Shown here: positions 498-63,518 of the stretch, in pieces
Numbering within the stretch: the first letter of the stretch is position 1
Layout: each line of letters opens with the position of its first letter
From: Candidatus Falkowbacteria bacterium
GTDB taxonomy: Bacteria > Patescibacteriota > Patescibacteriia > UBA11705
Length of the DNA: 64,000 nucleotides
Reading direction: 5' to 3'
Assembly: GCA_003518055.1 (NCBI GenBank)
Contig: DOZJ01000006.1
Coordinates: 201,631-265,630, forward strand
Translations under genes and position numbers: made by a program
The notes under the pieces: generated by a model
The model's input: only the letters and a program-made list of their open reading frames with translations
Database searches by the model: none
Told to the model about the DNA's origin: nothing

Positions 498-606
498 TGT
501 TTAACCAGGTGTTAAATGATTGCCCCGCTTTTAATACAGCAAGTTTGAAGATTTAAGAGAATGAGTAATTGAGAGAATTAAGTTTTAAACTTGTTGATAA
601 ATAATT

Positions 607-5143: not shown

Positions 5144-5313
5144 TTTGACAGTTGACGGAGGCTGTCACGCCTGCCTGCCGGCAGGCAGGGCGCTACTTCG
5201 TACGCCTCGCAGCAAGAAAGAGAGGATTTTTTGCGAGGAAGGTACGACGAAGCAAACTACGATTGGCTGCTAATGGAGGCTGCTGCGTCGGTACTGCGTA
5301 CTCCTCGCAGCAA
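5144..5313. repeat. repeat family R1 (two units plus spacer; the first unit carries the R2 palindrome) upstream of the GIY-YIG gene
   Basis: Consensus unit TTGACAGCTAA(T/C)GGAGGCTGC(C/T)GCGTCGTTACTGCGTACTCCTCGCAGCAA. Units lie at 5144-5216 and 5265-5313, joined by the spacer TTTGCGAGGA(A)GGTACGACGAAGCAAACTACGA. Confidence 0.8.
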
Positions 5314-5326
5314 CAAACGTTTATCT

Positions 5327-5647
5327 ATGGGAGGGTTTGTATATATAATAACAAATAAATATAACACAGCTTTGTATGTAGGATCGGCAACTGATCTGCT
5401 GTTTAGAATTCAACAGCATAAGAACAAGGCATATAAGAGTTCATTTTCGGCTAGATATAATATTTCAAAATTGGTTTATTTTGAATGTTTTAATAGCAGA
5501 TATGAGGCATATCAACGAGAATATCAAATAAAGTCAGGATCAAGGGCTAAAAAGATTGCGTTAATAATAAAAGCGAATCCAGATTTTGATGATCTTTATG
5601 ATGATATTGTTTTAAATGGGATTGAAAAAAGTATATATAATAAATAG
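5327..5647 (+). CDS. GIY-YIG nuclease superfamily protein (YhbQ/UPF0213-like, ~106 aa)
   Basis: GFVYIITNKYNTALYVGSATDLLFRIQQH matches the GIY-YIG core of the short stand-alone family. The ATG at 5327 was chosen because the upstream part of the listed ORF is repeat sequence. Confidence 0.7.
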   Translation: MGGFVYIITNKYNTALYVGSATDLLFRIQQHKNKAYKSSFSARYNISKLVYFECFNSRYEAYQREYQIKSGSRAKKIALIIKANPDFDDLYDDIVLNGIEKSIYNK

Positions 5648-12371: not shown

Positions 12372-12385
12372 AGCGAGTAAAGTAA

Positions 12386-12423
12386 AGAGAGATTAAGAGA
12401 ATTAAGAGATTTAGAGATTAGAG
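12386..12423. repeat. repeat family R3, solo copy (AGAGATTAAGAGAATTAAGAGATT)
   Basis: Matches the inverted repeats that flank the four-helix-bundle gene at 20544-20584 and 20977-21015. Confidence 0.7.
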
Positions 12424-12567: not shown

Positions 12568-13077
12568 ATGGATAAGGGAAAACCACTGAGTTTTGGTGGA
12601 ATGGAATTGCGGGAATTGCTGCTCGGAGGATTTTATTTGTGGAGCGGAGTGCCGGAACCGATGGAGGGGGTGGTGGTTCTAAATGTTTTTGTTCGCGGTG
12701 ATGATCTGCATCTGGAAATGGTGGATAATGATGTTCGTTGTCCCTGTGAGATTCCAATGGATTTGGTGGTCCGTCGATTTAAAACTGATCCGACAATTGA
12801 TGTTTTTTGTCCGGCTAAGCGGTTGGTTGATCCTGATCCTTTTGGGATGTCGACGGCGTTAAATGTGTTTGTTTTTTCTCTGTCATTTACACTTTCGGTT
12901 TCCCCCATGCTTTTGGGGCTGCGGTTTCTGATTGGGGCAACCAATAAGATTCGAGGATACAGTCAGTATGGTGCGGAGTTTCTTTATCGGTTGAAGGGGC
13001 AGGTGAGCGAGGATGTTTTTGAAACGGTAAAGCAAGCGCTCCGAAATTATTACCGCGAAGGTCCGGTTCTGGTTTGA
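12568..13077 (+). CDS. hypothetical protein (169 aa)
   Basis: Preceded by a TTGACA-N17-TAAGAT promoter and an AGGAGG RBS, and followed by a terminator at 13077-13103. GC ~47%. Confidence 0.45.
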   Translation: MDKGKPLSFGGMELRELLLGGFYLWSGVPEPMEGVVVLNVFVRGDDLHLEMVDNDVRCPCEIPMDLVVRRFKTDPTIDVFCPAKRLVDPDPFGMSTALNVFVFSLSFTLSVSPMLLGLRFLIGATNKIRGYSQYGAEFLYRLKGQVSEDVFETVKQALRNYYREGPVLV

Positions 13078-13103
13078 GAGTCATAATGGTGACTCTTTTT
13101 TGT
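13077..13103 (+). terminator. rho-independent terminator (AGAGTCAtaatggTGACTCT + T6)
   Basis: Perfect 7-bp stem plus TTTTTT at the end of the 12568-13077 ORF. Confidence 0.65.
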
Positions 13104-13193
13104 TGGGTGATAATGGCATTAATAAAATGGGAGACTTGACATTGTTTTATTATTATGATATTATTTTAAGTTCAAACAACAAAAGGGGGAATT

Positions 13194-13799
13194 ATGAGCT
13201 TAAGTGATCATGATTTGGCTAAATTGTCTTCGGTTTTGGAATCGGCGGGATATGGCGTTCAGGGAGCTTTAATTAGATTAAAAATAGTTTGTTTGCGACT
13301 TAATATCTCTGATCTTGAACGGTTGACGTCAGTTTATCATAGACATTTGGAATTGATGAAGGATTTATTGCGCAAAATGGAAGATAAATGGAATGATTTT
13401 GCGGTGAACTGTTTTACTGATTTTGAATTAGCTTGTATTGACGCCCTGTATCCGCTGGGTGATAAACCTACGCCTGTGAGTAATGTTCCGGAAATTTTGA
13501 AGACGGAAGAAAAGTATACTCAAGCAGCATTTATCAGAATGGAAATTAATCATCATCGTCGGAGGCTGGCGGCTATCAATTGGATGAATGATTTACTTCC
13601 TGTTGAATATGCAAGTTCAGCAAAACATTTGGCGAATCAAGAGTGGCTGTGGGCAGAATTGACGAGAGGATTGCCGGTGGAGGTTATTCAGGCCATTGAT
13701 GATCTGTATCCGCTGGTTAATCCGGAGCCAATAACGAAAGCTATGGCTAGACAAATTTTTATGACCAGATTAAGCCTAGTATTCAATAGCGAGCATTAA
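13194..13799 (+). CDS. hypothetical protein, paralog 1 of a tandem pair
   Basis: 201 aa. Own TTGACA-N17-TATTAT promoter at ~13128-13157 and a terminator at 13791-13816. Shares ELACIDxLYPL, VPEILKT and LYPLVxPEP blocks with 13988-14581. Confidence 0.5.
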   Translation: MSLSDHDLAKLSSVLESAGYGVQGALIRLKIVCLRLNISDLERLTSVYHRHLELMKDLLRKMEDKWNDFAVNCFTDFELACIDALYPLGDKPTPVSNVPEILKTEEKYTQAAFIRMEINHHRRRLAAINWMNDLLPVEYASSAKHLANQEWLWAELTRGLPVEVIQAIDDLYPLVNPEPITKAMARQIFMTRLSLVFNSEH

Positions 13800-13987
13800 T
13801 AGATGCTCTTTTTTGTTGAAAAAAATACTAGGCTTAGAACAAATCATATAAAATATGAGTAATTAAGGCTGGTGGCGGGATATTTTAGCGGTGGATGGTT
13901 AGATTCAAGGGTGAATAAAATGGATGATTTGACAGTTTTTATTCGATGTGTTATATTATATAGTCACTTCACACACGAGGGGGAAGC

Positions 13988-14581
13988 ATGAAACTTAGAG
14001 ATTTTGATTCTTATAAGCTAAGTACAGTTTTTGACTCTGCCGGCTATGGTAGTCATGGAGCTTTGATTAGGCTAAGAATAAATTTTGGGCGGCGGCATAT
14101 CGCGGATCTTGAATGGTTGAAAGATGTTTATCAGGTATATTTCGTATATTTGAAAGCATTTTTGCGTCAACAGGAAGATAAATGGAATGTTTTTACTGGC
14201 TTTTTTACTGCTTTTGAATTGGCTTGTATTGACGAGCTGTATCCACTTGATGATAAGCATAAGTCCGTGAGTGGTGTCCCTGAAATTCTGAAGACAGCAC
14301 AAATCGGCCCACAGGTAGCGTTTCGCCGAATGAAAATTAATTATCGGCGCCAGATGGTCGCGGCCATGGATTGGATGAAGGATCTGTTCCCCGATGAATA
14401 TGAAAATTCAGTACTAGAATTGGAGTCATCTGAACAGATGTGGGTAAGGTTGACTGAAAGTTTGTCGGTCGAGGTACTTCGTGCAGTTGATGATTTATAT
14501 CCGCTGGTTCATCCGGAGCCAATGACAAAAGATAAGGCTAGGCAAATGATCATTGATCAAAATCTTCTCGAGATTAATTAG
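13988..14581 (+). CDS. hypothetical protein, paralog 2 of a tandem pair
   Basis: 197 aa, clearly homologous to 13194-13799. Own TTGACA-N17-TATATT promoter and a terminator at 14582-14610. Confidence 0.5.
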   Translation: MKLRDFDSYKLSTVFDSAGYGSHGALIRLRINFGRRHIADLEWLKDVYQVYFVYLKAFLRQQEDKWNVFTGFFTAFELACIDELYPLDDKHKSVSGVPEILKTAQIGPQVAFRRMKINYRRQMVAAMDWMKDLFPDEYENSVLELESSEQMWVRLTESLSVEVLRAVDDLYPLVHPEPMTKDKARQMIIDQNLLEIN

Positions 14582-18592: not shown

Positions 18593-18690
18593 GAGCTTCG
18601 GCTGGCACGGCCAGTACTATAGCTTTTTAAATGAGCTTCGGCTGGCACGGCCAGTACTATAGCTTTTTAAATGAGCTTCGGCTGGCGAGC
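18593..18690 (+). repeat. 40-bp tandem repeat x2.5 (GAGCTTCGGCTGGCACGGCCAGTACTATAGCTTTTTAAAT) immediately 3' of tRNA-Glu
   Basis: Two perfect copies and one partial copy. Each unit contains a CTGGC-acg-GCCAG hairpin followed by a T-run. Confidence 0.85.
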
Positions 18691-18714
18691 CAATATTGGC
18701 GAGATAAGGGGGAA

Positions 18715-18745
18715 AGAGAATTGAGAGATTAAGAGAATTAAGAAA
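18715..18745. repeat. repeat family R3, solo copy
   Basis: AGAGAATTGAGAGATTAAGAGAATTAAGAAA. Confidence 0.7.
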
Positions 18746-18814: not shown

Positions 18815-18852
18815 TTTTTTTTGTACGAAAAAACCTGAACGATGTCAGGTTT
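18815..18852 (-). terminator. rho-independent terminator of the GC-rich cassette A (minus strand)
   Basis: AAACCTGAacgatgTCAGGTTT hairpin, followed on the minus strand by a T-run. Confidence 0.6.
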
Positions 18853-18883
18853 GGGGAAGTTGAGGCGGGAAAGAACTGGTGGG

Positions 18884-19429
18884 CTAGAGGTGGAAGTCGG
18901 TGCAGATGATGGATTCGAGCATGTTGTAGGAGTCGTCCCATTCGGGATGCTCGGGGTCGTGGCAGCGGAGGTCGGGCAGGTCGTCGGCGAAGGTGCCTTG
19001 GGTGACGGTGCCGGCGGGAACGGTGCGTCTGGTGCGGATGGCGACCGTGAGCTCGGCCACGGTCTGCAGCGCGATGATGTCGGGGTGGGTCGGGTCTCCG
19101 GTTTCGCGCAGGATCTCGATGGCGCGTCGGGCGTGATTCGGGCCGTAGTAGAAGTTGTACTGGCCCGTCTCGATCTTCCCGTGCTTCTTCACGTCGCCGA
19201 AGTCGATCACGAAGCGCTTGCCGCCGGCCCAGTCGATGTAGAAGCGGCTGGTGGCGTGTTCGAGCAGAATGGCGAGCGCCCCCACGTCGTCGATGATGTT
19301 GGGGGTGGGGTCGGCGGCGCTGACGCCGAACTTGACGCCGGCGTTGTACAGAGCCGCCAGAATATCTTCCTCGACGAGTCCTTGAACGTCCACGATGCTG
19401 TCGTGGGTGCAGGTGCGATCGAATGGCAT
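18884..19429 (-). CDS. hypothetical protein encoded in GC-rich island A (181 aa)
   Basis: Body ~65% GC against ~40% in the flanks. AAGGAGGAGG RBS and the shared TTGACT-N17-TATAAT promoter immediately upstream, with a terminator downstream. The overlapping plus-strand ORF is regarded as a GC artefact. Confidence 0.55.
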   Translation of the reverse strand: MPFDRTCTHDSIVDVQGLVEEDILAALYNAGVKFGVSAADPTPNIIDDVGALAILLEHATSRFYIDWAGGKRFVIDFGDVKKHGKIETGQYNFYYGPNHARRAIEILRETGDPTHPDIIALQTVAELTVAIRTRRTVPAGTVTQGTFADDLPDLRCHDPEHPEWDDSYNMLESIICTDFHL

Positions 19430-19490
19430 GGTTTTCTCCTCCTCCTTAAAGCGGCCGTTGAGAGCGAAGGAACAGTTGAATTAACTTTAA

Positions 19491-19519
19491 ATTATATCAT
19501 ATATTTATCAAAAAGTCAA
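19491..19519 (-). promoter_or_regulatory. shared promoter module, copy A (TTGACTTTTT-N-TATGATATAAT)
   Basis: Minus-strand -35 TTGACT and -10 TATAAT with a 17-nt spacer. A near-identical 35-nt module recurs at 50097-50128 and 55685-55716. Confidence 0.7.
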
Positions 19520-19753
19520 TAGGCTGGGGGGCGGTTATTGTTTAAACGATATGAGCAGCCTTTATTTGGCTTAAAATGGACGATATTTGTCCTTGGTGGA
19601 ATTGTGTATTATTAATGAACCATGAAGAGCATTTTTTTTGTTGTGAAAAAAAGGAATATTGGGTATAATTTATGGCAGAAGTATAATTGACGTCGGAGAA
19701 ATAAAGCTTAAAAGGATTATAAAAAATAAGTTTATAAATTTAATTTTAATTAT

Positions 19754-20409: not shown

Positions 20410-20543
20410 AAATTACTAGGCAGGTAAAAATATAAGCCGCTTCGGGGAAGCGGTTTTTGGTTTATCCACAGGTGGGTTTTGACGTTCGGTTTTTGTTTGG
20501 GTATAGTGGAGGTAGGCGAACAAGAAGCGAACAGAAGAAAGAT

Positions 20544-20584
20544 AATTGAGAGATTAAGAGAATTAAGAGATTGAGAGAGTGAGT
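20544..20584. repeat. R3 left inverted repeat flanking the four-helix-bundle gene
   Basis: AATTGAGAGATTAAGAGAATTAAGAGATTGAGAGAGTGAG, the reverse complement of the right-hand repeat at 20977-21015. Confidence 0.75.
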
Positions 20585-20609
20585 TAAAAAAAAGACAAAA
20601 TATTATTTT

Positions 20610-20981
20610 ATGCCTACTTCATATCGAGAATTAAGAATTTGGAAGAAAGGATACGATCTTCTTTTGGAGGTTTATGAAATAACGAGTCATTATCCAAATG
20701 GTGAAAAATTTGGCTTGGTTTCTGATACTAGACGTTCGGCTAATTCGATTATCGCCAATATTGCGGAAAGCCATGGGCGTTATTACTTTCTGGATAAAAT
20801 TAGGGTTTTATATATTGCTAGGGGTGAAGTTGAGGAAGTGAGAAGTCATTTAGAAGTGGCTTTTGGGGTGAATTATTTAACACAAGAAGTTTATAAAAAA
20901 TTAGATTTAGAGTATCAAGGTTTATTAATTGGTTTAAATGAATACATAAACAGCATTTTTAAAGAAAAAAATAAAACTTAA
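20610..20981 (+). CDS. four-helix-bundle protein (23S rRNA intervening-sequence protein / Avd-like family)
   Basis: 123 aa. YRELRIWKKGYDLLLEVYEITSHYP...GLVSDTRRSANSIIANIAESHGR matches the PF05635/TIGR02436 signature. Confidence 0.8.
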   Translation: MPTSYRELRIWKKGYDLLLEVYEITSHYPNGEKFGLVSDTRRSANSIIANIAESHGRYYFLDKIRVLYIARGEVEEVRSHLEVAFGVNYLTQEVYKKLDLEYQGLLIGLNEYINSIFKEKNKT

Positions 20982-21015
20982 TTCTCTTAATCTCTTTTTA
21001 TTCACTTAATTCTCT
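20977..21015. repeat. R3 right inverted repeat flanking the four-helix-bundle gene
   Basis: CTTAATTCTCTTAATCTCTTTTTATTCACTTAATTCTCT. Confidence 0.75.
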
Positions 21016-21023
21016 AAAAACAT

Positions 21024-21626
21024 ATGACTTTAAGCAAGCGTCAAAGTGAAATTCTCAGTTTTATAAAAGAATTTGTCCGTGATTATGATTATTCGCCGAG
21101 TTATCGCGAGATCGGGGAAGCCATGGGAATTTCTTCGCCGGCGACGATTCATCAGCATATGCAGACGCTCAAGGCCAAGGGATATCTGGATATTGATCCG
21201 AACGCGCCGCGGTCATTGCAGCTAACTAGCAAGGTGATGAAATTGGGCAAGAGCATTGAGCTGCCCCTTCAGGGGTTGATTGCCGCGGGTGAGCCGATTG
21301 AGGCGGTGATGCAGAATGAAACTATCGCGGTGCCGGTTGATTTTGTCACCAACGACAATTCTTACGTTTTGAAGGTCAAGGGGTTATCGATGATTGATGA
21401 GGGAATTTGGGATGGCGATTATGTGGTGGTGGAATACAACCCATCACCTAAAAATGGGGATGTGGTTGTGGCCTTGCTTGATAATGCTTATGTGACATTG
21501 AAAAAGTTTTTTCGGGAAAAGACTCGCATTCGATTACAGCCGGCCAATGCCAGCATGAAACCGATTTACTGTAAGGATGTGATTATTCGGGGTGTGGTCA
21601 AGGCGATTATAAGAAAGTTCGCGTGA
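21024..21626 (+). CDS. lexA: LexA repressor (S24 peptidase)
   Basis: 200 aa with an N-terminal wHTH, an AAGEP cleavage region, and a catalytic Ser (GLSMIDEGI) and Lys (VTLKKF). Confidence 0.85.
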   Translation: MTLSKRQSEILSFIKEFVRDYDYSPSYREIGEAMGISSPATIHQHMQTLKAKGYLDIDPNAPRSLQLTSKVMKLGKSIELPLQGLIAAGEPIEAVMQNETIAVPVDFVTNDNSYVLKVKGLSMIDEGIWDGDYVVVEYNPSPKNGDVVVALLDNAYVTLKKFFREKTRIRLQPANASMKPIYCKDVIIRGVVKAIIRKFA

Positions 21627-62619: not shown

Positions 62620-62675
62620 TGTGTTGGTTAACTAGTTAATTAGTTAACTGGTTAATTTATTTTATAATTTATAAT

Positions 62676-63518
62676 ATGCTTTTCGACACCCATGCCCATG
62701 TAAATTTTAATGACTTCAAAGATGATCATGAAGATGTTTTGACGCGGGCTAGAGAAAAAAATGTCGTGATGATTAATGTTGGTTCTCAGATATCCACAAG
62801 TGAACGTGCGGCGGAAATGGCGGTGAAGTATGCAAAAACATTTGCCGCGGTCGGTTTGCATCCAATTCATTTGCAGTCATTTGAGGTCAAAGAAGAGGGT
62901 TTGACGTTTATGTCTCGCGCCGAGGATTTTGATGTCGAAGCATATGCCCTGCTCGCGGCCAAGGATCAGGTGGTGGCAATTGGCGAGTGTGGGTTGGATT
63001 ATTACCATATTGATTTGAATGGTGATCTTGATTTGATTAAACAAAAGCAAAAACAAGTATTAAATCTGCAAATTGATTTGGCGAACCAGCACGAATTGCC
63101 GCTGATATTGCATTGCCGCGGCAGCAAAATGAATCCCCAAGACGCTTATAAAGATTTACTGCGGGAATTGAAAAAAAATTTACCGCGCAAGCGAGGTGTG
63201 CTTCATTGTTTTGGTTCGAATTGGGAAGTGGCACAAGAGTTTTTGGAATTGGGTTTTTATCTCGGATTCACCGGCGTGATTACATTTGATAAAACCGGAA
63301 ATTTGGCTGAGGTAGTCCGCAATGTGCCTGAGGCGCAAATGCTGGTTGAAACCGATTGTCCGTATTTGACGCCTGATCCATATCGAGGCAAAAGAAATGA
63401 ACCCATATATGTGGAGTATGTAGTCAAAAAAATAGCTGAATTACGTAATTTATCTTTTGAACAAGCGGCGGAGATAACCACGCGTAATGCGAAGAATTTA
63501 TTTAATGTTGTGGTCTAA
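62676..63518 (+). CDS. tatD: TatD family metal-dependent hydrolase/DNase
   Basis: 280 aa with FDTHAHV at the N-terminus, plus conserved His and Asp metal ligands (IGECGLDY, LHCR, VETDCPY). Confidence 0.85.
   Translation: MLFDTHAHVNFNDFKDDHEDVLTRAREKNVVMINVGSQISTSERAAEMAVKYAKTFAAVGLHPIHLQSFEVKEEGLTFMSRAEDFDVEAYALLAAKDQVVAIGECGLDYYHIDLNGDLDLIKQKQKQVLNLQIDLANQHELPLILHCRGSKMNPQDAYKDLLRELKKNLPRKRGVLHCFGSNWEVAQEFLELGFYLGFTGVITFDKTGNLAEVVRNVPEAQMLVETDCPYLTPDPYRGKRNEPIYVEYVVKKIAELRNLSFEQAAEITTRNAKNLFNVVV

What the first reader, a model, noticed from the sequence alone, without database searches (positions are those of the whole stretch)
20536..21020. Free-standing IVS-type cassette: four-helix-bundle (Avd/23S-IVS) protein gene flanked by inverted repeats, with solo repeat copies elsewhere
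Gene 20610-20981 belongs to the family usually encoded inside 23S rRNA intervening sequences, and is related to DGR accessory Avd. It is bracketed by inverted copies of AGAGATTAAGAGAATTAAG (20544-20584 and 20977-21015), in the way IVS stems bracket such ORFs. Here the cassette sits between protein genes, immediately upstream of lexA. Solo copies of the repeat occur at 12386-12423, 18715-18745 (next to tRNA-Glu and GC island A) and, more diverged, at 554-582 upstream of mraZ. This suggests a small mobile or recombinogenic cassette family. No reverse transcriptase (DGR) or homing endonuclease is present in the window.
Basis: partly seen in the sequence, partly recalled or inferred. Interest (0 to 1): 0.5.

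Follow-up and report, generated by a model that had tools for sequence, protein, structure and literature searches.

The report
Hairpin-flanked four-helix-bundle cassette upstream of lexA
A small gene of the kind usually found inside ribosomal-RNA intervening sequences sits here in the leader of the SOS repressor gene lexA, bracketed by inverted arrays of 8-9-base units, and comparison with relatives shows it belongs to a large, apparently undescribed class of cassettes that come and go as units between the genes of operons.

Summary
A PF05635/TIGR02436 four-helix-bundle gene (20610-20981) is bracketed by a perfect 19-nt inverted repeat. This extends to an imperfect stem of about 38 bp. Exact solo copies lie at 12388 and 18724, and a diverged one at 547-582.

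The "repeat" is really a tandem array of 8-9-nt units. The cassette lies in the lexA leader, after a conserved promoter and two SOS-box-like repeats, in a Candidatus Falkowbacteria genome.

In 69 non-redundant related metagenome loci the same layout recurs:
- 87% of the genes have flanking inverted arrays above the 95th percentile of control genes.
- Period 8 dominates.
- Polarity is fixed (55:0).
- Neighbours are co-oriented (105/107), and the arms fill the intergenic gaps.

The lexA leader carries cassettes of three very different subtypes in six genomes and is empty in three, including close relatives. The gene is compositionally foreign. So gene plus arms behaves as a mobile unit.

The unit motif is conserved, but cassette-specific base pairing is not. 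Processing of the RNA stem by RNase III, as in 23S IVSs, is therefore plausible but unproven. Protein recognition of the arrays is a serious rival. How the cassette moves, and where the solo arrays come from, remain unknown.

The parts
20479..20507 (+). promoter-like site of the lexA operon (TTGACG-17-TATAGT), preceded by a terminator at 20434-20456
   Evidence: Conserved in six Falkowbacteria loci in alignment A2.
20484..20532 (+). two SOS-box-like direct repeats: GTTC-N7-GTTT (20484-20498) and GAAC-N7-GAAC (20518-20532). The cassette begins a few nt after the second.
   Evidence: Invariant columns in A2. Calling them a LexA box rests on my own knowledge of the alphaproteobacterial GTTC-N7-GTTC box; this is inference.
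20541..20585 (+). left arm: tandem 8-9-nt purine-rich units (AGAGATTA / AGAGAATTA / AGAGATTG / AGAGAGTG). Contains the perfect 19-mer at 20549-20567.
   Evidence: (period 8, 4.8 copies)
20610..20981 (+). four-helix-bundle gene (123 aa), PF05635/TIGR02436. GC 0.31 and GC3 0.23, against about 0.45 and 0.47 in host genes.
   Evidence: AF2 pLDDT 94 with four helices. Foldseek 2GSC TM 0.88-0.96, then 2RLD and Avd 4DWL/8UB7. Composition.
20977..21018 (+). right arm: reverse-complement units (CTTAATTCT, 4.2 copies). Overlaps the TAA stop of the gene and ends 6 nt before the lexA ATG.
21024..21626 (+). lexA, the host gene whose leader carries the cassette
   Evidence: 100% to Candidatus Falkowbacteria LexA
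12381..12420 (+). solo array (exact 19-mer plus two more units) between the Band_7 stop codon and an intrinsic-terminator hairpin. Lies at the left edge of three strain-specific genes.
   Evidence: (array unpaired; terminator hairpin -17.1 kcal/mol, z -3.0)
18714..18745 (+). solo array sharing 33 nt with the left arm (1 mismatch), in a non-conserved spacer 3' of tRNA-Glu and a 40-nt tandem repeat
547..582 (+). diverged 4-unit array in the mraZ 5' leader, downstream of promoter-like site 431-459
   Evidence: (E 0.17)

Best explanation
This is a selfish IVS-type cassette. A PF05635 four-helix-bundle gene, together with two inverted arrays of 8-9-nt units, is lodged as one unit in the SOS-controlled leader of lexA in a Candidatus Falkowbacteria genome.

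Shown:
- The anatomy described above.
- The same anatomy in nearly all relatives of the gene: arms with period 8, a fixed polarity with the G-rich arm 5' of the gene, co-orientation with both neighbours, and arms that fill the gap from the upstream stop codon to the downstream start codon.
- Gain, loss and replacement of gene plus arms as a unit at one and the same host site.
- Foreign base composition.

Inferred:
- The cassette has no promoter or terminator of its own, so it is transcribed from the lexA promoter together with lexA.
- In that transcript the arms pair into a stem of about 38 bp (19 bp perfect). This encloses the ORF in a loop and brings the 5' leader next to the lexA start codon.
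- As in the 23S rRNA intervening sequences that carry the same gene family, the stem is a likely RNase III substrate. The insert could then be cut out of the host transcript, which would make such insertions tolerable.
- The unit motif, which carries TAA/TAG in both orientations, also stops translation in several frames on both sides.

The solo arrays are most simply orphan or seed arrays of the same units. How the cassette moves is unknown, because it encodes no recognisable nuclease, recombinase or reverse transcriptase.
For: Anatomy.

Generality (80 loci):
- IR score median 36 against 16 for 92 control genes. 87% exceed the control 95th percentile, MWU p 1e-24.
- Neighbours co-oriented in 105 of 107 cases. 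Gaps have medians of 51 and 38 nt.
- Period 8 in 37/39 left and 26/34 right arms, about 4 copies each.
- Polarity 55:0.
- Stops in all three frames in 68% and 55% of arms, against 37% and 15% of shuffles.

Unit mobility:
- The lexA leader is occupied in WIN, L056, L112, L113, L115 and L121, and empty in L114, L120 and L122.
- L120 (empty) and L121 (occupied) have 89% identical LexA.
- The IVP of WIN is 34% identical to that of its closest relative L112 (LexA 91%), but 64% identical to that of distant L056 (LexA 72%). The L121 IVP is 22-32% identical to all the others.
- L112 carries a second cassette exactly between a stop codon and an ATG, where the window has only 'TAAttctATG'.

Foreignness:
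- IVP GC3 is 0.23 against about 0.47 in the window.
- In 26 loci that share one host site, IVP GC3 is 0.34 against 0.60 for the host gene. IVP 4-fold sites are also less diverged (0.54 vs 0.39 identity).

IVS precedent: RNase III excision of IVSs that carry this ORF family, and tandem heptamers in the Coxiella IVS arm (PMC4990558). The same family occurs in CPR rRNA insertions (PMC11270868).
Against: - No direct evidence of transcription, stem formation or RNase III cleavage.
- Mismatches in the arms show no significant excess of G.U-compatible over A.C types (96:74, p 0.11), and most are transversions.
- A left arm is no more complementary to its own right arm than to those of other cassettes of the same unit type (35.7 vs 35.9, p 0.62). 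What is conserved is therefore the motif and its orientation, not individual base pairs.
- No target-site duplication is visible at the two empty/occupied comparisons.
- Only one cassette occurs in about 73 kb of this genome.
- None of 40 related loci lies in an rRNA gene.
- The origin of the solo arrays is unexplained.
Confidence: 0.6

Rival explanations
1. The arms are not primarily a stem. They are arrays of sequence-specific recognition sites, spaced 8 nt apart and inverted on the two sides, like the subterminal repeats of transposons or like iterons/operators. They would be bound by a protein, most economically by the encoded pentameric four-helix-bundle protein itself, on DNA or RNA. The solo arrays would be further binding sites. 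This partly overlaps with the best explanation.
For: - The core motif (ATTAG at 8-nt spacing, 62 of 84 spacings) is kept in 26 loci whose neighbouring host gene is about 51% identical at synonymous third positions (0.39 at 4-fold sites).
- There is no cassette-specific complementarity and no G.U bias.
- Polarity is fixed at 55:0.
- Two cassettes in one genome (L112a, L112b) have different units and different proteins.
- Solo arrays are 19-33 nt identical to the arm of the only IVP gene in about 73 kb.
- The homologous Avd pentamer is a nucleic-acid-binding scaffold in the DGR RNP (structures 4DWL, 8UB7 retrieved; its function is from my own knowledge).
Against: - No binding data exist for any PF05635 protein.
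- Motif conservation could also result from concerted evolution by slippage.
- Matching of unit type to protein clade is equally expected from simple linkage.
- Solo arm-like copies are rare near cassettes in relatives (4 of 69 loci).
Confidence: 0.3
2. The gene is a domesticated, vertically inherited member of the SOS regulon. It would have a function tied to lexA and the downstream Y-family polymerase, and the arms would be a regulatory leader structure for lexA.
For: - The position after conserved SOS-box-like repeats is shared by six genomes of at least two CPR classes.
- lexA is followed by a small ORF and an IMS/DinB-type polymerase gene in all of them.
Against: - Proteins at this site fall into three subtypes with 22-34% identity, and these do not follow the LexA tree.
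- Close relatives are empty: L114, and L120 compared with L121.
- The same cassette type sits at many unrelated sites, and only one of 80 relatives is next to lexA.
- The composition is foreign.
Confidence: 0.08
3. It is the Avd accessory gene of a diversity-generating retroelement, or a remnant of one.
For: Fold similarity to bAvd (4DWL, 8UB7; TM about 0.77) and weak hits to PF22296 and NF033474.
Against: - Scores are far below both curated cut-offs (22.8 vs 40; 30 vs 80).
- No reverse transcriptase appears among the called genes of 0-31 kb or among the ten further ORFs scanned.
- The flanking repeats are inverted 8-nt arrays, not a TR/VR pair.
Confidence: 0.02
4. The repeats are chance low-complexity sequence or a general UTR motif unrelated to the gene.
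For: - The genome is moderately AT-rich, and short arrays are common in its spacers.
- The 19-mer also occurs by chance inside coding sequence (EIKRIK) in unrelated genomes.
Against: - 5 matches against 0.05 expected.
- Flanking IRs are specific to IVP genes, p 1e-24.
- The motif is absent from 43 kb of the window and from 9.4 kb upstream.
Confidence: 0.01

Closest known systems
23S rRNA intervening sequences carrying an S23p/IVP ORF (Leptospira, Coxiella burnetii, some CPR rRNA insertions)
   Same: Same protein family in the loop. Complementary termini form a long stem. Short tandem repeats occur in the 5' arm (Coxiella GACAGAT x3, with variable copy number). Distribution is patchy and selfish-looking (PMC4990558; PMC11270868).
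   Different: It is not in an rRNA gene. It sits in an mRNA leader or between operon genes. The arms are regular period-8 arrays with a conserved core and fixed polarity. RNase III cleavage has not been shown here.
DGR accessory protein Avd (Bordetella phage BPP-1; PDB 4DWL, 8UB7)
   Same: Four-helix-bundle fold and distant sequence relationship. Solved relatives are pentamers.
   Different: Scores are below the Avd model cut-offs. There is no RT, TR or VR. The context is a hairpin cassette.
Free-standing homing endonuclease genes (e.g. seg/mob genes of T4-like phages)
   Same: A small gene wedged co-directionally between conserved host genes. Presence and absence differ among close relatives, different genes occupy the same spot, and composition differs from the host.
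   Different: There is no nuclease motif in the protein, and the cassette has conspicuous inverted arrays. The comparison is from my own knowledge, not tested.
MITEs / REP-BIME elements and transposons with subterminal repeats
   Same: Inverted termini built of repeated short motifs. ORF-less inverted arrays of the same units exist (Flavobacterium L015 and L020, z -5.3 and -4.7). Solo arrays also occur.
   Different: No transposase, no target-site duplication seen, and no multi-copy identical family demonstrated in this genome.

Membership tests
PF05635 / TIGR02436 four-helix-bundle (23S rRNA IVS protein) family | Profile score above the curated cut-off | tested here: met
   PF05635 102.6 bits vs 33.8; TIGR02436 95.6 vs 24
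PF05635 / TIGR02436 four-helix-bundle (23S rRNA IVS protein) family | Four-helix up-down bundle like XCC0516 (2GSC) and BT_0352 (2RLD) | tested here: met
   AF2 pLDDT 94 with helices 9-25, 30-56, 60-86, 92-122. 2GSC TM 0.88-0.96 at rmsd 0.8-0.9; 2RLD TM 0.79. phmmer vs 2GSC 1.1e-11.
PF05635 / TIGR02436 four-helix-bundle (23S rRNA IVS protein) family | Homopentameric toroid | not tested
   Only a monomer was modelled.
23S rRNA intervening sequence (IVS) | Inserted in a helix of the 23S (or 16S) rRNA gene | tested here: not met
   No rRNA in the window. The cassette lies in the lexA leader. None of 40 related loci is in rRNA.
23S rRNA intervening sequence (IVS) | Complementary termini forming a stable stem around the insert | tested here: met
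   19/19 perfect, about 38 bp extended, dG -35.4, z -4.1
23S rRNA intervening sequence (IVS) | Excision by RNase III without religation | not testable with these tools
   Needs RNA mapping or an in vitro assay.
23S rRNA intervening sequence (IVS) | A related IVS present in this genome's own 23S rRNA gene | not testable with these tools
DGR accessory variability determinant (Avd) | Score above the NF033474 / PF22296 cut-off | tested here: not met
   30 vs 80; 22.8 vs 40
DGR accessory variability determinant (Avd) | Adjacent reverse transcriptase and TR/VR repeats | tested here: not met
   No RVT among called genes of 0-31 kb or among ten further ORFs. The flanking repeats are inverted arrays. 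The check is not exhaustive for 31-64 kb.
DNA transposon / MITE | Terminal inverted repeats | tested here: met
DNA transposon / MITE | Target-site duplication | tested here: inconclusive
   None evident at L112b vs window or L121 vs L120. The junctions lie in divergent AT-rich spacers.
DNA transposon / MITE | Encoded transposase or recombinase, or multiple near-identical copies in one genome | tested here: not met
   The only ORF is the IVP. There is one cassette in about 73 kb. Near-identical genes in the metagenome set share their flanks, so they are the same locus.

The most novel reading that the evidence does not exclude
PF05635 cassettes are a distinct, so far undescribed class of mobile elements.

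- The encoded pentameric four-helix-bundle protein recognises the period-8 unit arrays at both ends.
- The element spreads horizontally, homing-like, into stop-start junctions and leaders of transcribed operons, always co-oriented. It may use host enzymes or an RNA intermediate.
- The classical 23S rRNA IVSs are merely the subset that landed in rRNA.
- The SOS-controlled lexA leader is a preferred landing site that couples the element's expression to DNA damage.
Probability: 0.25. Interest if true: 0.8.

Novelty: new variant of a known kind. Interest (0 to 1): 0.62.

Why it matters
The function of the IVS-encoded protein family has been unexplained since the first IVS ORFs were described, and PF05635 is among the most common 'hypothetical' families in CPR, Bacteroidota and cyanobacteria.

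A free-standing cassette with a regular, conserved architecture turns the question into concrete experiments. That architecture comprises period-8 inverted arrays, fixed polarity, operon co-orientation, and gain and loss as a unit. The experiments are whether the pentamer binds the arrays, whether RNase III excises the cassette from mRNA, and how it moves.

It also explains why these genes keep turning up between cas genes and in 'defence islands' (PMC3936711, PMC10053308): they may simply be insertions. Finally, it flags a recurrent insertion hotspot under SOS control in CPR bacteria.

Tried and rejected
- **Exact 19-mer in 185,579 species genomes.** 30 hits, but many are chance coding matches (EIKRIK) and none lies near an IVP gene. 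The source genome is not among the representatives, so a genome-wide copy map was not obtained.
- **RNA-strand signature.** The G.U vs A.C mismatch test was not significant. The test of own versus foreign arm complementarity was negative. I therefore do not claim covariation support for the stem.
- **Kuenenbacteria 'ORF-less hairpins' (L018, L026).** Inverted arrays are visible, but folding z-scores are only -0.9 and -1.4, so I do not rely on them.
- **Solo copies as remnants of cassettes.** No IVP pseudogene lies next to them. Orthologous sites in relatives carry no cassette. L118 has a different solo array at the post-Band_7 site and L117 has none. This stays unresolved.
- **Protein search with the 395-aa PilM-like gene** to fetch syntenic relatives returned only the gene itself, so that search was wasted.
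- **Viral contigs.** No relatives found.
- **Rfam.** Only tRNA in the window and in 40 related loci.
- **Literature.** No paper in the held library describes tandem-unit arms around free-standing PF05635 genes. Subscription literature was not searchable.
- **Rejected readings.** DGR and chance explanations are rejected (see rivals).

Full report
**1. The observation**

- The repeat finder reports arms 20549-20567 and 20977-20995 (19 nt, 100% complementary, 409 nt apart), plus several overlapping imperfect pairs.
- Folding 20530-21025 as RNA gives a terminal stem of about 38 bp that encloses the whole ORF.
- The two arms alone form a duplex of -35.4 kcal/mol, against -18.7 +/- 4.0 for shuffled partners.
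- The ORF 20610-20981 matches PF05635 (1.6e-29) and TIGR02436 (2e-27). It scores below the cut-offs for the two Avd models.
- Its AlphaFold model (pLDDT 94, four helices) superposes on XCC0516 (2GSC, TM 0.88-0.96) and BT_0352 (2RLD), and more distantly on the DGR Avd (4DWL, 8UB7).
- The 19-mer recurs exactly at 12388 and 18724, and with three mismatches at 564. That is 5 matches against 0.05 expected.
- A profile of the copies finds nothing else in the window or in the 9.4 kb upstream of it.
- Tandem Repeats Finder shows that each copy is an array of 8-9-nt units (AGAGATTA / AAGAGAATT; right arm CTTAATTCT).

**2. Where it sits**

The window is identical to a groundwater metagenome contig. Its LexA is 100% identical to a Candidatus Falkowbacteria protein.

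Upstream of the cassette lie a terminator (20434-20456) and a promoter-like site (20479-20507). Alignment of six related loci shows an invariant promoter with GTTC-N7-GTT(T/C) in its spacer and GAAC-N7-GAAC just downstream. Similarity ends a few bases after the second repeat, where the cassettes begin. From my own knowledge these resemble the direct-repeat SOS box of Alphaproteobacteria.

The right arm ends 6 nt before the lexA ATG, and there is no terminator in between. So the cassette occupies essentially the whole lexA leader. It should be co-transcribed with lexA under SOS control. This is inference.

**3. The same architecture in relatives**

A metagenome scan with an alignment of homologues returned 80 loci. 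A printout of their flanks shows one layout throughout:
- upstream gene stop;
- 3-14 tandem units (xGATTAAG, xGAATTAG, GTTAATCG, AGAGATT);
- ATG ... gene ... TAA;
- reverse-complement units;
- ATG of the next gene.

In numbers:
- The flank-to-flank inverted-repeat score has a median of 36 for 69 non-redundant IVP genes and 16 for 92 control genes in the same loci. 87% exceed the control 95th percentile (p 1e-24).
- Both neighbours are co-oriented in 105 of 107 cases, with gaps of only 51 and 38 nt (medians).
- The period is 8 in 37/39 left and 26/34 right arms, with about four copies each.
- The G-rich arm is always on the 5' side, 55 loci to 0.
- Because the unit contains TAA/TAG and 8 is not a multiple of 3, arms carry stops in all three frames more often than shuffles do (68% vs 37%; 55% vs 15%).
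- None of 40 loci tested is in rRNA. This subfamily is therefore free-standing as a rule.

**4. Gene plus arms behaves as a mobile unit**

*The lexA leader.*
- It carries an IVP cassette in the window, L056, L112, L113, L115 and the Kuenenbacteria locus L121. It is empty in L114, L120 and L122.
- The proteins do not follow the host. The window's IVP is 34% identical to that of its closest relative L112 (LexA 91%), but 64% identical to that of L056 (LexA 72%).
- The L121 protein is 22-32% identical to all the others. Its host is 89% identical in LexA to the empty L120.
- The arms differ in unit sequence between these cassettes, but each left arm matches its own right arm in unit type.
- In L120 and L114 the leader between the SOS box and the ATG is only 20-23 nt.

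*A second site.* L112 carries a second cassette with different units and a 40%-identical protein. It sits exactly between the stop codon of a small ORF and the ATG of an 81-aa gene, where the window reads 'gaagttTAAttctATG'. I saw no target-site duplication at either comparison.

*Composition.* In the window, IVP GC3 is 0.23 against about 0.47 for host genes.

*A shared host site.*
- In 26 loci that share one host site (upstream of a HAD-like gene), IVP GC3 is 0.34 against 0.60.
- IVP 4-fold sites are less diverged than those of the adjacent gene. Identity is 0.54 vs 0.39, against 0.28 and 0.26 expected from composition. IVP is higher in 152 of 190 pairs.
- This suggests horizontal exchange into the same site.

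*Literature.* Published annotations incidentally show the same wedge layout: F. columnare gmk - four-helix-bundle - nadD with gaps of 35 and 33 nt (PMC5524665), and Pleurocapsa cmr3 - IVP - cmr2 (PMC3936711).

**5. What the arms are for**

The precedent is the 23S IVS. The same ORF family sits in a loop closed by complementary termini that RNase III cuts. This has been shown for Coxiella and reported for Leptospira and Salmonella. The Coxiella arm even contains tandem heptamers of variable number (PMC4990558). A 19-bp perfect duplex within a stem of about 38 bp should be a substrate wherever it is transcribed, so I rate IVS-like processing as the most likely mechanism.

Two tests for selection on pairing as such were negative:
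- G.U-type mismatches do not significantly exceed A.C-type (96:74, p 0.11), and transversions dominate (229).
- Among 35 cassettes with ATTAG-type units, a left arm pairs no better with its own right arm than with foreign ones (35.7 vs 35.9, p 0.62).

By contrast the unit core is strongly conserved. There are 4.2 ATTAG per left arm, 62 of 84 spacings equal 8, and this holds across loci whose neighbouring gene is near saturation at silent sites.

What is maintained is therefore a motif, its period and its polarity. That keeps open the rival in which the arrays are recognition sites for a protein, possibly the encoded pentamer. The two are not exclusive.

**6. The solo copies**

- They are real, but their origin is unresolved. 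No IVP gene or pseudogene lies nearby.
- The 12388 array lies between the Band_7 stop codon and a terminator hairpin. It marks the left edge of three genes (12568-14581) that are absent in L117 and L118, where Band_7 is followed directly by the PBP gene.
- L118 has a different solo array (ATTACGGAT x about 7) at the same post-Band_7 position, and L117 has none.
- The 18724 array shares 33 nt (1 mismatch) with the cassette's left arm. It lies in a spacer that is not conserved in L112.
- The 547-582 array is in the mraZ leader after promoter-like site 431-459.
- All are on the transcribed strand.
- Arm-like solo copies are rare near cassettes in relatives (4 of 69 loci).
- A second type of solo array (GTTAACTA/GTTAATTA) fills the spacer at 62627-62657.

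**7. Comparison with known systems, and novelty**

The protein is a clear member of PF05635/TIGR02436. The element works like an IVS, but it fails the defining feature of residing in rRNA. It is not a DGR: scores are below cut-off, and there is no RT or TR/VR. It lacks a transposase and a visible target-site duplication.

Searches of the held literature found no description of period-8 inverted arrays around free-standing PF05635 genes. Subscription journals could not be searched.

I file it as a new variant of a known kind. It is moderately to highly interesting because it offers a testable handle on a 30-year-old orphan family.

Noticed in passing
window 18842-19522 (ORF 18884-19429, minus strand): A 181-aa ORF with GC 0.64 and GC3 0.88 in a genome of GC 0.42. 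It has no Pfam hit and a 67%-identical counterpart in relative L112. It looks compositionally alien and lies next to tRNA-Glu.
   Followed up: partly
window 18593-18686; L116 6597-6867: A 40-nt tandem repeat (x2.3, 100% identical) lies directly 3' of tRNA-Glu(CTC). The closest relative instead has a 114-nt repeat (x2.4) that contains partial tRNA-Glu copies. The region between tRNA-Glu and the lexA promoter differs in gene content in every relative, which points to an integration hotspot.
   Followed up: partly
window 20484-20498 and 20518-20532: GTTC-N7-GTTT in the promoter spacer and GAAC-N7-GAAC after the -10 element are invariant in six Falkowbacteria/Kuenenbacteria lexA promoters. This would be a direct-repeat SOS box of the alphaproteobacterial type in CPR bacteria.
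   Followed up: partly
window 62627-62657: A second kind of solo period-8 array (GTTAACTA GTTAATTA GTTAACTG GTTAATTT) fills the spacer between an ORF stop (62619) and the ATG at 62676. The same unit type forms cassette arms in other genomes (e.g. L053, L055, L088).
   Followed up: no
window 12568-14581: Three genes (169, 201 and 197 aa, no Pfam hits) lie between Band_7 and the PBP gene. They are absent at this position in L117 and L118, and the solo array at 12388 marks their left edge.
   Followed up: partly
window 5273-5647: A small GIY-YIG domain ORF (PF01541, from the precomputed annotation of the identical contig). No link to the cassette was found.
   Followed up: no
L015 4328-4425, L020 6474-6570 (Flavobacterium); also L021, L024, L025, L030: ORF-less hairpins 'accattaAGAGATTAAGAGAATTAAG ... 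cttaat..cttaatggt' contain the very same 19-mer in their stem (z -5.3 and -4.7). This may be an ORF-less counterpart of the cassette arms in Bacteroidota. No IVP gene lies within 4 kb.
   Followed up: partly
L056 3001-3402: The lexA-leader cassette of this relative has an in-frame TAA after the fifth codon and an extra ORF-less inverted array between the left arm and the ATG. It may be a decaying copy.
   Followed up: no
L118 2517-2577: A solo array of about 7 units of ATTACGGAT lies right after the Band_7 stop codon. This is the same position as the window's 12388 array, but the unit sequence is unrelated. Several similar arrays occur elsewhere in that locus.
   Followed up: partly
L120 2477-2500, L114 3981-4000, L121 2482-2500: The short native lexA leader in empty sites, and the stretch retained 3' of the L121 cassette, share '(A)ATTAAC(C)A.CA.AT'. 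This resembles one cassette unit (reverse complement GTTAATT). It could be a target motif, a scar, or chance in AT-rich sequence.
   Followed up: no
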